Of a DNA stretch of 11,013 nucleotides, positions 8,444 to 9,190 are shown piece after piece. The DNA is taken from IMG/VR virus record IMGVR_UViG_2778261708_000011, one strand, 5' to 3'. The notes beneath the pieces were generated by a model. It was not told the origin of the DNA and ran no database searches. It saw only the letters and a list, made by a program, of their open reading frames with translations. The DNA comes from a virus (lineage: Duplodnaviria; Heunggongvirae; Uroviricota; Caudoviricetes). The position numbers and the translations under genes are program-made. The stretch's first letter is position 1; each line of letters starts with the position of its first letter.

Positions 8444-8519
8444 ATCGAAACCCTTAGATTTTCCTAAGGAAACTAGATCGTAGAGAAACCTAAGTCAAGA
8501 AAAATTAGAATTACCTAAT
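8444..8519. promoter_or_regulatory. dicA/dicC divergent promoter-operator region
   Basis: Palindrome CTTAGATTTTCCTAAG (8453-8468) and a further CCTAAG (8489-8494). Minus-strand promoter: -35 TTGACT (plus 8498-8493), 17-nt spacer, -10 TAGTTT (plus 8475-8470). Plus-strand -10-like TAGAAT at 8506-8511 lies only 8 nt before the dicA ATG and there is no SD, suggesting a leaderless dicA mRNA as for lambda cI from PRM. Confidence 0.6.
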
Positions 8520-8927
8520 ATGAAAAACGAAACCTTCGGTGCTCGCCTCTTATACAGGCGAAAAAAATTAAAACTGTCTCAGGCCGCATTAGGTAAGCTG
8601 GTCAAAGTGGCTCACGTAACAATTTCTCAATGGGAAAGAGATGAAACACAGCCAGCGGGGAAGAGATTATTCGCACTGAGCCAGGCGCTTCAGTGCTCGC
8701 CGACTTGGCTTCTTTTTGGAGATGAAGATAAGCAACCAGGCGAACCGATCCCAGATAATCAGCCAGTCAATCTGACAGAAGATCAAAAAGAGTTGCTTCA
8801 ACTGTTCGACGCACTGCCTGAGTCAGAGCAAAAGGCTCTGTTGTCAGAGATGCGTGCTCGAGTTGAGAATTTCAACAAACTTTTTGAAGAACTACTCAAA
8901 GCTCGCAAAAGAAGCGCAAATAAATAA
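8520..8927 (+). CDS. dicA: DicA (CI-like HTH repressor)
   Basis: 135 aa; N-terminal HTH (LSQAALGKLVKVAHVTISQWER) and the conserved ...LFALSQALQCSPTWLLFGDEDKQP...LFDALPESEQ...EMRARVENFNKLFEELLKAR, matching E. coli DicA as I remember it. Confidence 0.9.
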   Translation: MKNETFGARLLYRRKKLKLSQAALGKLVKVAHVTISQWERDETQPAGKRLFALSQALQCSPTWLLFGDEDKQPGEPIPDNQPVNLTEDQKELLQLFDALPESEQKALLSEMRARVENFNKLFEELLKARKRSANK

Positions 8928-9025
8928 CCCCCCTTTTTTTCGCAACTCTCTGTAATAAAAAGCACAAACTTTCAAATACTTGTGTTTTTTACATCAAGAA
9001 GCTTAGGTTTTTCTACACAAAAAGC

Positions 9026-9055
9026 TTGACCATAACTCTTAGGCTATTCTAAATT
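9026..9055 (+). promoter_or_regulatory. Candidate promoter for the operon downstream of dicA (PL-like position)
   Basis: -35 TTGACC (9026-9031), 18-nt spacer, -10 TAAATT (9050-9055). Flanked by CTTAGG repeats (9002-9007 and 9038-9043), the same motif seen in the dicA/dicC operator region. Confidence 0.35.
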
Positions 9056-9190
9056 CTACTCATCAAGACACCGCACGGTGTTCTCAGCAAACAGTTCCGC
9101 TACCCGGCGTTAAGGGGAAGCAGAGGATTTCTCAGTGGGCGAGTCAAACATCAGAATGGAAGGCGTCCAGGGATCAGCAAAGAAACAGCG

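What the first reader, a model, noticed from the sequence alone, without database searches (positions are those of the whole stretch)
8444..9060. Shared CTTAGG/CCTAAG motif in both regulatory regions flanking dicA
The dicA/dicC intergenic region has the palindrome CTTAGATTTTCCTAAG plus another CCTAAG overlapping the dicC -35. The region after dicA has CTTAGG at 9002-9007 and 9038-9043 around a candidate promoter. This is the pattern expected for DicA operator half-sites controlling both the cro-like promoter and a PL-like early-left promoter. The dicA ATG has no SD and sits 8 nt after a -10-like hexamer, suggesting a leaderless transcript.
Basis: partly seen in the sequence, partly recalled or inferred. 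Interest (0 to 1): 0.4.

Follow-up and report, generated by a model that had tools for sequence, protein, structure and literature searches.

The report
Repressor operators flanking prophage dicA
The repeated CTTAGG motif is the conserved half of 18-bp binding sites for a prophage repressor (a DicA homologue in E. coli O157:H7) that sit on the promoters on both sides of its gene, an ordinary lambdoid immunity switch whose operator differs by one or two bases from the one known in E. coli K-12.

Summary
All four CTTAGG/CCTAAG copies, the palindrome and the TAGAAT-8 nt-ATG layout are at the stated coordinates. Four hexamers fall in 209 nt of intergenic DNA, against 0.21 expected (P = 5e-5).

The real unit is an 18-bp inverted repeat, nCTTAG-N6-CTAnnn. 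Two more sit on the downstream TTGACC/TAAATT promoter: OL-a 9001-9018 and OL-b 9037-9054.

- **Same geometry as K-12.** The layout matches the validated K-12 DicA operator Oc (TTGTTAG-N6-CTAACAA).
- **Covariation.** In 156 distinct related loci the outer half-site base switches in both regions at once, following DicA helix 2: CTTAG with SQAA, GTTAG with TQRx.
- **Footprint.** In distant relatives the downstream sites stay 77-85% conserved while the gaps fall to 31-49%.
- **Leaderless dicA.** K-12 dicA mRNA has a mapped 3-nt leader, and all 33 upstream variants keep TAGnAT 8-9 nt before the ATG with no Shine-Dalgarno (SD) sequence.
- **This exact locus.** Pan et al. 2019 showed DicA lowers dicB and DicC lowers dicA here, but mapped no operators.

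This is a heteroimmune member of a known kind, of low to moderate interest. Direct binding is untested.

The parts
8216..8443 (-). dicC / cro-like gene (75 aa)
   Evidence: Pfam P22_Cro, E = 3e-13. 83% identical to K-12 DicC. Annotated as a Cro/CI family regulator.
8452..8469 (.). O1, equivalent to K-12 Oc: CCTTAGATTTTCCTAAGG, with perfect 6-N6-6 arms
   Evidence: It is the best 6-N6-6 palindrome in the 100 nt upstream of dicA, starting at -68 (-67 in a few loci) as in almost all HTH classes. It abuts the dicC -10 and covers the predicted dicC +1, as Oc does in K-12. Identical in 37 of 49 distinct class-A loci.
8470..8475 (-). dicC promoter -10 (TAGTTT)
   Evidence: Lies 17 nt from the TTGACT -35. 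Positional homologue of K-12 TATCTT, whose TSS was mapped by 5'RACE. Relatives carry TAATTT, TATTTT or TAATCT.
8478..8495 (.). O2: reverse complement ACTTAGGTTTCTCTACGA, a strong CTTAGG half plus a weak CTAC half
   Evidence: Matches CTTAG-N6-CTA. 93% complementary over 15 nt to OL-a (pair I2). Conserved in class A. Fills the spacer of the dicC promoter.
8493..8498 (-). dicC promoter -35 (TTGACT)
   Evidence: Read directly from the sequence. K-12 has the same hexamer.
8503..8520 (.). O3, equivalent to K-12 Oa: AATTAGAATTACCTAATA. Covers the dicA -10 and TSS.
   Evidence: Matches TTAG-N6-CTAA. K-12 has ATTTAGCATTAGCTAACT at the same place.
8506..8511 (+). dicA promoter -10 (TAGAAT). Predicted TSS at A8518, giving a 2-nt leader.
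   Evidence: K-12 has TAGCAT, then 6 nt, then the mapped TSS 3 nt before the ATG. All 33 distinct upstream variants keep TAGnAT 8-9 nt before the ATG and none has an SD.
8520..8927 (+). dicA-like repressor gene (135 aa)
   Evidence: Pfam HTH_3, E = 4e-14. The N-terminal domain matches the P22 C2 N-terminal domain, E = 1e-21. 63% identical to K-12 DicA. Matches the Pan 2019 DicA cloning primer exactly.
8956..8991 (+). Terminator-like hairpin with an A-run before it and a T-run after it, downstream of dicA
   Evidence: Inverted repeat I10. Folding energy -9.2 kcal/mol, z = -3.1. The simple terminator scan does not call it, because the stem is AU-rich.
9001..9018 (.). OL-a: GCTTAGGTTTTTCTACAC, upstream of the -35
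   Evidence: 77% conserved in 9 distant relatives, against 48-49% in the adjacent gaps.
9026..9055 (+). Early-left (dicBp-like) promoter: TTGACC, 18 nt, TAAATT
   Evidence: Called by the promoter scan. Same layout as K-12 dicBp, TTGACC-17-TAATCT.
9037..9054 (.). OL-b: TCTTAGGCTATTCTAAAT, between the -35 and -10 and overlapping the -10
   Evidence: 85% conserved in distant relatives, while the 5 nt before it are 44% conserved. K-12 has TGTTAGTCATGGCTAATC at the same place.
9062..9120 (+). Conserved 5' leader of the early-left transcript, with two hairpins. Adjacent to the finding and not part of the operator set.
   Evidence: Shared with the K-12 ydfA 5'UTR and phage mEp460. No Rfam match.

Best explanation
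CTTAGG is positions 2-7 of an 18-bp dyad operator, nCTTAG-N6-CTAAGn, read by a dimer of the 135-aa DicA-like repressor. Its N-terminal domain is a close homologue of the phage P22 C2 DNA-binding domain.

The immunity region carries five such sites.
- **O1** is perfect and presumably the strongest. It abuts the dicC (cro-like) -10 and covers its start, so bound repressor blocks dicC. By analogy with K-12 Oc, it also activates the weak dicA promoter from about -57.
- **O2** fills the dicC promoter spacer.
- **O3** covers the dicA -10 and start. It is the likely site for shut-off of dicA by DicC, or by excess DicA.
- **OL-b** lies between the -35 and -10 of the early-left promoter. **OL-a** lies just upstream of it. 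Together they repress the operon that leads to dicB, exo, xis and int.

dicA is transcribed from TAGAAT as an essentially leaderless mRNA (predicted 5' end A8518, 2 nt before the AUG), like lambda cI from PRM.

What is shown here: the anatomy, the positional homology to K-12, the covariation and the conservation. What is taken from papers: the regulatory logic at this locus, and binding and TSS data for the K-12 homologue. What is inferred: that this protein binds these sites, the relative site strengths, the activation from O1, and the role of O3.
For: **1. Geometry.**
- K-12 DicA binds Oc, TTGTTAGTCATAACTAACAA, in vivo, and one base change abolishes binding (PMC3441716).
- The window's O1 is CCTTAG-N6-CTAAGG at the same offset, -68 from the dicA ATG.
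- The K-12 dicBp region has TGTTAG-N6-CATACA and TGTTAG-N6-CTAATC where the window has OL-a and OL-b.

**2. A priori test.** The shared core TTAG-N6-CTAA hits only O1, O3 and OL-b in 11 kb, against 0.09 expected.

**3. Covariation.**

| Helix-2 class | Distinct loci | CTTAG upstream / downstream | GTTAG upstream / downstream |
|---|---|---|---|
| SQAA | 49 | 2.88 / 1.94 | 0 / 0.06 |
| TQRx | 107 | 0.13 / 0.16 | 2.86 / 1.97 |

- In nearly every HTH variant of both classes the best upstream palindrome sits at -68/-67. It is CCTTAG... in the SQAA class and TGTTAG... in the TQRx class.
- Phage mEp460 has a third HTH type and carries TTGAG-type dyads at the same positions.

**4. The switch tracks DicA, not DicC.** Loci L006 and L007 have GTTAG operators, yet their DicC N-terminus is nearly the same as in the window's class.

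**5. Footprint.** Among 45 distinct downstream sequences, conserved islands match OL-a, the -35 and OL-b. They are separated by a hypervariable 5-6 nt stretch. In 9 distant relatives the operators are 77% and 85% conserved, against 31-49% for the gaps.

**6. Protein.** HTH_3 domain. Matches the P22 C2 N-terminal domain, E = 1e-21. P22 repressor binds an 18-bp site and contacts positions 2-7 and 12-17 (PMC4267663). In that frame CTTAGG is exactly positions 2-7, and the class switch is at position 2, the first contacted base.

**7. This locus.** The Pan 2019 primers match the window exactly. In that study DicA overexpression lowered dicB, DicC overexpression lowered dicA and raised dicB, and a dicA deletion could not be obtained.

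**8. Leaderless mRNA.**
- K-12 dicA TSS lies 3 nt before the ATG, by dRNA-seq and RLM-RT-PCR.
- K-12 dicA is listed among known leaderless genes.
- All 33 of 33 upstream variants keep TAGnAT 8-9 nt before the ATG, with no SD.
Against: - No binding, footprint or TSS data exist for this protein or this DNA.
- In K-12 only Oc bound DicA in the in vivo assay. The isolated Om and Oa sites did not. So O2, O3 and OL-a, which have degenerate right halves, may bind only cooperatively, only DicC, or not at all.
- The CCTAAG next to the dicC -35 (8489-8494) is also kept in GTTAG-class loci L006-L008, and as TCTAAG in L009/L010. That copy may therefore be conserved through promoter context, DicC binding or mosaic ancestry rather than class-specific DicA contact.
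- O3 hardly changes between classes. Its conservation could come from the dicA -10 alone.
- The related loci are not phylogenetically independent, and dicA and its operators are inherited as one module. The covariation therefore rests on about three specificity types and a few mosaic junctions, not on 156 independent events.
- The dicC -10 (TAGTTT) and the dicA -35 are poor matches. The simple scan does not call the dicC promoter.
Confidence: 0.85

Rival explanations
1. The sites are mainly operators for the Cro-like DicC protein, and DicA acts elsewhere or indirectly.
For: In lambdoid switches Cro and repressor share operators. DicC overexpression represses dicA at this locus. O3 and the CCTAAG at the dicC -35 are conserved across DicA classes along with a similar DicC.
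Against: The C/G switch at position 2 follows DicA helix 2 and not DicC. K-12 DicA binds the homologous Oc directly. Shared use by both proteins is expected and fits the main explanation. Only exclusive DicC use is a true rival.
Confidence: 0.08
2. The repeated motif is a relic of common descent or duplication of two AT-rich promoter regions, or a chance similarity, and no protein reads it.
For: The hexamer is not enriched in the whole window. The extended pattern CTTAG-N6-CTA was derived after looking at the data.
Against: Local enrichment has P = 5e-5. The a priori K-12-derived core hits only these regions. There is dyad symmetry. The sites are conserved amid hypervariable neighbours. They change together in both regions when the repressor HTH changes.
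Confidence: 0.03
3. Another factor reads the motif, for example the CII-like YdaT-family protein encoded next to dicC, or host H-NS/Cnu.
For: A CII-like gene lies at 7681-8232. Cnu/H-NS influence the K-12 dicA promoter.
Against: An 18-bp dyad at operator positions fits an HTH dimer of the P22 C2 type. CII-type activators usually read direct repeats flanking a -35. H-NS has no such specific dyad site. The covariation is with the DicA HTH.
Confidence: 0.03

Closest known systems
Qin prophage dicA-dicC-dicBp immunity region of E. coli K-12 (Bejar et al. 1986/1988; Yun et al. 2012; Ragunathan et al. 2023)
   Same: - Gene order is the same: dicC leftward, dicA rightward, then the dicB operon.
- The repressor is a 135-aa protein in both.
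- Operator geometry is xxTTAG-N6-CTAAxx, with the main site starting 68 nt before the dicA ATG.
- A site abuts the dicA ATG.
- Two sites 36 bp apart bracket the downstream TTGACC -35.
- dicA lacks an SD and has TAGnAT 8-9 nt before the ATG.
- The early-left leader is conserved.
   Different: - DicA is only 63% identical.
- Helix 2 begins SQAA instead of TQRS.
- The half-site is C-C-TTAG instead of T-G-TTAG, so the two are predicted to be heteroimmune.
- O1 lies 1 bp further from the dicC -10.
- ydfA and ydfB are replaced by a 99-aa ORF.
- No DicF match lies between dicA and dicB.
Phage P22 C2 repressor and its immC operators
   Same: The N-terminal domain aligns over residues 2-69, E = 1e-21, including QAALGK and V33/I35/S36/Q37/W38/E39. 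Both use an 18-bp pseudo-palindromic operator. P22 repressor contacts positions 2-7 and 12-17. T3-T4-A5 of the half-site is shared (the P22 consensus ATTTAAG is quoted from memory).
   Different: P22 C2 is 216 aa and has a RecA-cleavable C-terminal domain. This protein is 135 aa with a short, different C-terminal region (PMC10448788). Its half-site is CCTTAG(G) rather than ATTTAAG.
Lambda CI/Cro switch (OR1-3, OL1-3, PRM, PR, PL)
   Same: - Divergent repressor and cro genes with three operators 25-26 bp apart, centre to centre.
- Operators on a second, early-left promoter downstream of the repressor gene.
- A repressor mRNA that is leaderless or nearly so.
- The repressor gene promoter is weak and has been shown to be autoactivated in K-12.
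   Different: - Only two clear sites at the left promoter.
- The main activating site is centred near -57, not -42.
- The repressor has no autocleavage domain. In Qin, induction is by an antirepressor and is independent of RecA.
- No N gene or recognisable nut site.

Membership tests
DicA/DicC-type lambdoid immunity module (Qin-like) | Short repressor of about 135 aa with an N-terminal HTH_3 domain of the P22 C2 type and no S24 peptidase domain | tested here: met
   135 aa. Only HTH families match, at residues 6-72. Matches the P22 C2 N-terminal domain, E = 1e-21. 63% identical to K-12 DicA over the full length.
DicA/DicC-type lambdoid immunity module (Qin-like) | Divergently transcribed cro-like gene (P22_Cro family) across a short intergenic region | tested here: met
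   The 75-aa protein matches P22_Cro, E = 3e-13. 83% identical to K-12 DicC. The intergenic region is 76 bp.
DicA/DicC-type lambdoid immunity module (Qin-like) | Dyad operators with a TTAG-N6-CTAA core in the dicC-dicA intergenic region, the main one next to the dicC -10 | tested here: met
   O1, O2 and O3. Same offsets as K-12 Oc and Oa.
DicA/DicC-type lambdoid immunity module (Qin-like) | The same operators on a promoter downstream of dicA that drives the dicB operon | tested here: met
   OL-a and OL-b flank TTGACC-18-TAAATT. dicB, exo, xis and int lie downstream on the same strand.
DicA/DicC-type lambdoid immunity module (Qin-like) | The repressor physically binds the operators and represses dicC and dicB | not testable with these tools
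   Literature only. At this exact locus DicA overexpression lowers dicB and DicC overexpression lowers dicA (PMC6915034; primers verified). Binding has been shown only for K-12 DicA on Oc.
Leaderless repressor mRNAs (lambda cI, K-12 dicA, racR, ymfK) | TSS at or within a few nt of the start codon, with no SD | tested here: inconclusive
   Sequence features are met: TAGAAT 8 nt before the ATG, no SD, family-wide. The TSS is measured only for K-12 dicA, 3 nt before the ATG. None has been measured for this locus.
Lambda-type tripartite OR switch | Three adjacent operators bound cooperatively, with differential affinity for repressor and Cro | not testable with these tools
   Three sites with centres 26 and 25 bp apart are present. 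Affinities and cooperativity are unknown. In K-12 the two weaker sites did not bind DicA on their own.

The most novel reading that the evidence does not exclude
Heteroimmunity in the DicA family may be set by a single contact. Operator position 2 is C or G, and it follows the helix-2 residue (Ala22 here, Arg24 in K-12). The Cro-like DicC does not read that position. Loci L006 and L007 carry GTTAG operators with a DicC almost the same as in the CTTAG class. If so, repressors of the several DicA-type prophages in one O157 genome would be mutually blind, but their DicC proteins could act across prophages and couple their induction.
Probability: 0.3. Interest if true: 0.45.

Novelty: new member of a known kind. 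Interest (0 to 1): 0.25.

Why it matters
The result gives exact, testable operator coordinates and a predicted specificity determinant for the repressor that silences dicB and the early-left genes of the ompW-site prophage of E. coli O157:H7. That locus has already been linked experimentally to cell division and the viable-but-non-culturable state.

It also shows that DicA-type immunity regions come in at least three operator specificities on an otherwise conserved promoter scaffold. This is useful for predicting superinfection immunity and cross-talk among the many lambdoid prophages of EHEC strains.

It does not change how such switches are understood.

Tried and rejected
- **Whole-window hexamer enrichment.** Not significant, 5 copies against 3.5 expected. 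I replaced it with a local shuffle test and an a priori core pattern.
- **CTTAG-N6-CTA statistic.** I kept it only as description, because I derived the pattern from the same data.
- **Genome-contig scan.** It returned only 11 loci. Three viral-contig scans supplied the diversity.
- **Upstream alignment as a footprint.** The class-A upstream alignment is too uniformly conserved to serve as one. The downstream region was informative.
- **Rfam.** No family matched the region at the gathering threshold. The permissive search returned only snoRNA-type noise.
- **RNAalifold on the early-left leader.** A MAFFT alignment gave almost no consensus structure. Single-sequence folding of the leader is not better than shuffles, z = -0.6. 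Per-sequence folding of the sub-segments did show compensatory stems in hairpin 1.
- **HK022 putL.** By eye it shows no convincing similarity to the leader. I did not build a covariance model.
- **Third downstream operator.** I looked for the third site that the K-12 literature mentions and found only two with the TTAG-N6-CTA pattern.
- **DicF.** No DicF RNA match in this prophage between dicA and dicB.
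Full report
**What the window is.** Bases 8100-9600 are 100% identical to many E. coli O157:H7 chromosomes. They lie in a lambdoid prophage integrated next to ompW, called PPompW in phage records, where the two genes are annotated dicA and dicC.
- The ORF at 8520-8927 (+) encodes a 135-aa HTH_3 protein. The ORF at 8216-8443 (-) encodes a 75-aa P22_Cro-family protein.
- They are 63% and 83% identical to K-12 Qin DicA and DicC. They are homologues, not the K-12 genes.
- A CII-like (YdaT family) gene and replication genes follow dicC.
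- A 99-aa ORF, ydfC, dicB, exo, xis and int follow dicA on its strand.

**Checking the observation.** The hexamer alone is not enriched in the whole window, 5 copies against 3.5 expected. The local picture is different.
- Four of the five copies lie in 209 nt of intergenic DNA. Dinucleotide shuffles of that DNA give 0.21 copies (P = 5e-5).
- The repeat finder's top direct family is a 14-nt unit at 8453, 9002 and 9038. Its top inverted pairs join 8474-8494 and 8502-8518 to the downstream copies.
- The promoter scan calls TTGACC-18-TAAATT at 9026-9055.

**What the unit really is.** Read with its context, each copy is the left half of an 18-bp dyad.

| Site | Window coordinates | Sequence |
|---|---|---|
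| O1 | 8452-8469 | CCTTAG-ATTTTC-CTAAGG |
| O2 | 8478-8495 (reverse complement) | ACTTAG-GTTTCT-CTACGA |
| O3 | 8503-8520 | AATTAG-AATTAC-CTAATA |
| OL-a | 9001-9018 | GCTTAG-GTTTTT-CTACAC |
| OL-b | 9037-9054 | TCTTAG-GCTATT-CTAAAT |

It covers the TAGAAT hexamer and ends in the dicA ATG.
- Operator centres are 26 and 25 bp apart in the dicC-dicA region and 36 bp apart downstream.
- On the minus strand the dicC promoter reads TTGACT (8498-8493), 17 nt, TAGTTT (8475-8470). O2 therefore fills its spacer, and O1 abuts its -10 and covers the predicted start near 8463.

**Comparison with the characterised K-12 locus.**
- Yun et al. 2012 (PMC3441716) showed in vivo that DicA binds Oc, TTGTTAGTCATAACTAACAA. 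One A-to-C change abolishes binding.
- They also showed that Oc overlaps the dicC -10 (the dicC TSS was mapped by 5'RACE), and that DicA at Oc represses dicC and activates the consensus-less dicA promoter.
- The isolated Om and Oa sites did not bind DicA.
- Ragunathan et al. 2023 (PMC10448788) summarise that both the dicA-dicC region and the dicA-dicBp region contain operators like lambda OR and OL, and that dicBp is derepressed 22-fold without dicA.
- The K-12 sequence has TGTTAG-N6-CTAACA starting 68 nt before the dicA ATG and TTTAG-N6-CTAAC abutting the ATG. Downstream it has TGTTAG-N6-CATACA, then TTGACC, then 4 nt, then TGTTAG-N6-CTAATC.
- This is the window's layout almost base for base, with GTTAG where the window has CTTAG.
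- The shared core TTAG-N6-CTAA comes from K-12, not from this window. It matches exactly three times in the 11-kb window, at O1, O3 and OL-b. Expected 0.09; 0 of 200 shuffles reach 3.

**Comparative evidence.** I collected 254 loci encoding DicA relatives from genomes and viral contigs. Of these, 156 are distinct in HTH plus flanks.
- *Position.* In almost all HTH variants the best 6-N6-6 palindrome in the 100 nt upstream of dicA starts at -68 or -67. It is CCTTAG-N6-CTAAGG or a near variant in every variant whose helix 2 begins SQAA. It is TGTTAG-N6-CTAACA or a near variant in those beginning TQRx. In K-12-type loci a second perfect palindrome at the dicC start ties with it.
- *Covariation.* The specificity base changes together in the two regulatory regions, which are separated by the 408-bp gene, and it follows the repressor.

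| Helix-2 class | Distinct loci | CTTAG upstream / downstream | GTTAG upstream / downstream |
|---|---|---|---|
| SQAA | 49 | 2.88 / 1.94 | 0 / 0.06 |
| TQRx | 107 | 0.13 / 0.16 | 2.86 / 1.97 |

- *Third type.* Phage mEp460 has HTH LSQNGLSKAAGVSGSSISLWE. It carries ATTGAG...CTCAAT-type dyads at the same positions on an otherwise near-identical promoter and leader scaffold.
- *DicA, not DicC.* The switch follows DicA rather than DicC. L006 and L007 have GTTAG operators, but their DicC N-terminus is almost the same as in the CTTAG class.
- *Footprint.* Within the CTTAG class, 45 distinct downstream sequences show conserved islands over OL-a, the -35 and OL-b, with a hypervariable 5-6 nt between the -35 and OL-b. 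In the nine most distant members (protein 73-86% identical), identity to the window is 0.77 for OL-a and 0.85 for OL-b. The gaps score 0.31-0.49 and the -35 scores 0.61.
- *Consensus.* Per-site consensus sequences are CCTTAGATTTTCCTAAGG, ACTTAGGTTTCTCTACGA, AATTAGAATTaCCTAATA, ACTTAGGTTTTTCTACAt and yCTTAGGTTATTCTAAAT. T4, A5 and G6 are invariant.

**Why CTTAGG.** The N-terminal domain matches the P22 C2 N-terminal domain (E = 1e-21), with identical numbering through Q21, V33 and Q37. P22 repressor binds an 18-bp site as a dimer. It contacts positions 2-7 and 12-17 and leaves the central four bases uncontacted (PMC4267663). In that frame CTTAGG is exactly positions 2-7. The class-specific base is position 2, which that paper calls the first contacted base. 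The residue difference that follows it is in helix 2: S20-Q21-A22-A23 here against T22-Q23-R24-S25 in K-12. That Arg or Ala reads position 2 is my inference and is untested.

**Leaderless dicA.**
- K-12 dicA is one of five E. coli mRNAs classed as leaderless by dRNA-seq and was checked by RLM-RT-PCR (PMC4681348).
- The supplement places its TSS 3 nt before the ATG, which is 7 nt after TAGCAT.
- It is also listed among known leaderless genes in PMC8794815.
- In the window the same spacing from TAGAAT (8506-8511) predicts a start at A8518 and a 2-nt leader.
- All 33 distinct upstream variants in the family keep TAGnAT 8 or 9 nt before the ATG. None has an SD-like tetramer.

**Evidence at this very locus.** Primers in Pan et al. 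2019 (PMC6915034) match the window exactly at 8444-8493 and 8520-8541. In that O157:H7 strain:
- DicA overexpression lowered dicB.
- DicC overexpression lowered dicA and raised dicB.
- A dicA deletion could not be obtained.
- The paper contains no operator, EMSA or binding-site analysis.

**Model.**
- *Repression by DicA.* A DicA dimer on O1 blocks the dicC promoter and, as in K-12, stimulates the weak dicA promoter from about -57. DicA on OL-b, helped by OL-a, blocks the early-left promoter.
- *Shut-off of dicA.* O2 and O3 have degenerate halves and probably need cooperativity or are the preferred DicC sites. O3 over the dicA -10 and start is the natural place for DicC, or excess DicA, to shut off dicA.
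- *Insulation.* A hairpin with flanking A and T runs (8956-8991; -9.2 kcal/mol, z = -3.1) probably ends the dicA transcript before the early-left promoter.
- *Basis.* The anatomy, homology, covariation and conservation are shown here. The regulatory logic comes from papers. Binding order, activation and the role of O3 are inference.

**Caveats.**
- There are no binding data for this protein.
- The weak K-12 sites did not bind DicA alone.
- The CCTAAG next to the dicC -35 is also present in some GTTAG-class loci, so that copy may owe its conservation to something else.
- The related loci are not independent, and dicA and its operators travel as one module.

**Novelty.** The principle and the K-12 example have been known since the 1980s. 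What appears undescribed in the literature I could search is this prophage's own operator set, its C-versus-G specificity class, and the correlation with helix 2. I rate it a new member of a known kind, of low to moderate interest.

Noticed in passing
window 9062-9120 (also L002 1936-2000 and L254 2510-2575): A conserved 5' leader follows the early-left promoter directly. It reads CATCAA, hairpin 1 (GACACC-GCAC-GGTGTT, 9067-9082), TCTCAGCAAACAGTTCCGC, then hairpin 2 (CCC-GGCGTTAA-GGG, 9103-9116). It is shared with the K-12 ydfA 5'UTR, phage mEp460 and relatives in Citrobacter, Pantoea and Yersinia. The hairpin-1 stem changes with compensation: AACAC/GTGTT, AACCAC/GTGGTT, GTAACCAC/GTGATTAC, CGGC/GCCG. 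There is no Rfam match, no N-like gene downstream and no obvious similarity to HK022 putL. It may be a cis-acting RNA element for antitermination, processing or stability.
   Followed up: partly
L254 1895-2600 (phage mEp460_ev081): A third immunity type sits on the same scaffold. The 135-aa repressor has HTH LSQNGLSKAAGVSGSSISLWE. ATTGAG...CTCAAT-type dyads occupy the positions of O1, O2, OL-a and OL-b. The promoter elements and the leader are nearly identical to K-12.
   Followed up: partly
L006 and L007 (Escherichia ruysiae and E. albertii), upstream of dicA: These are natural mosaics. DicA is of the TQRE class with GTTAG operators, but the DicC N-terminus and the block CCTAAGTCAAGAAAAATTAGAATTACCTAA are almost identical to the window's CTTAG class. 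DicC therefore does not seem to read the class-specific base.
   Followed up: partly
window 8956-8991: An AU-rich hairpin follows dicA, flanked by an A-run and a T-run, so it looks bidirectional as a terminator (-9.2 kcal/mol, z = -3.1). More distant relatives have a different hairpin at the same place.
   Followed up: partly
L001 9800-12400 (window 8899 to beyond the window end): No DicF RNA match at the Rfam gathering score lies between dicA and dicB in this prophage, although K-12 Qin has dicF there. ydfA and ydfB are replaced by a 99-aa ORF of unknown function (phrog_21318).
   Followed up: partly
L057 and L060, upstream of dicA: In these variants the dicC -10 region is changed (aaactagatc becomes aaaccaggcc), which destroys the TAGTTT hexamer. 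This may be decay of the lytic promoter in some prophage copies.
   Followed up: no
window 326-572 and 3491-3640: Three tRNA genes lie on the minus strand, together with a sok antitoxin RNA (hok/sok type I toxin-antitoxin). The matching annotated genome (L001) annotates hokD and the adhesin gene paa in the same prophage.
   Followed up: no
L002 1343-1360 (K-12): A perfect palindrome, GTTTTAAGCATTTAAAAC, spans the dicC start codon in K-12-type loci. It is absent from the window's class.
   Followed up: no
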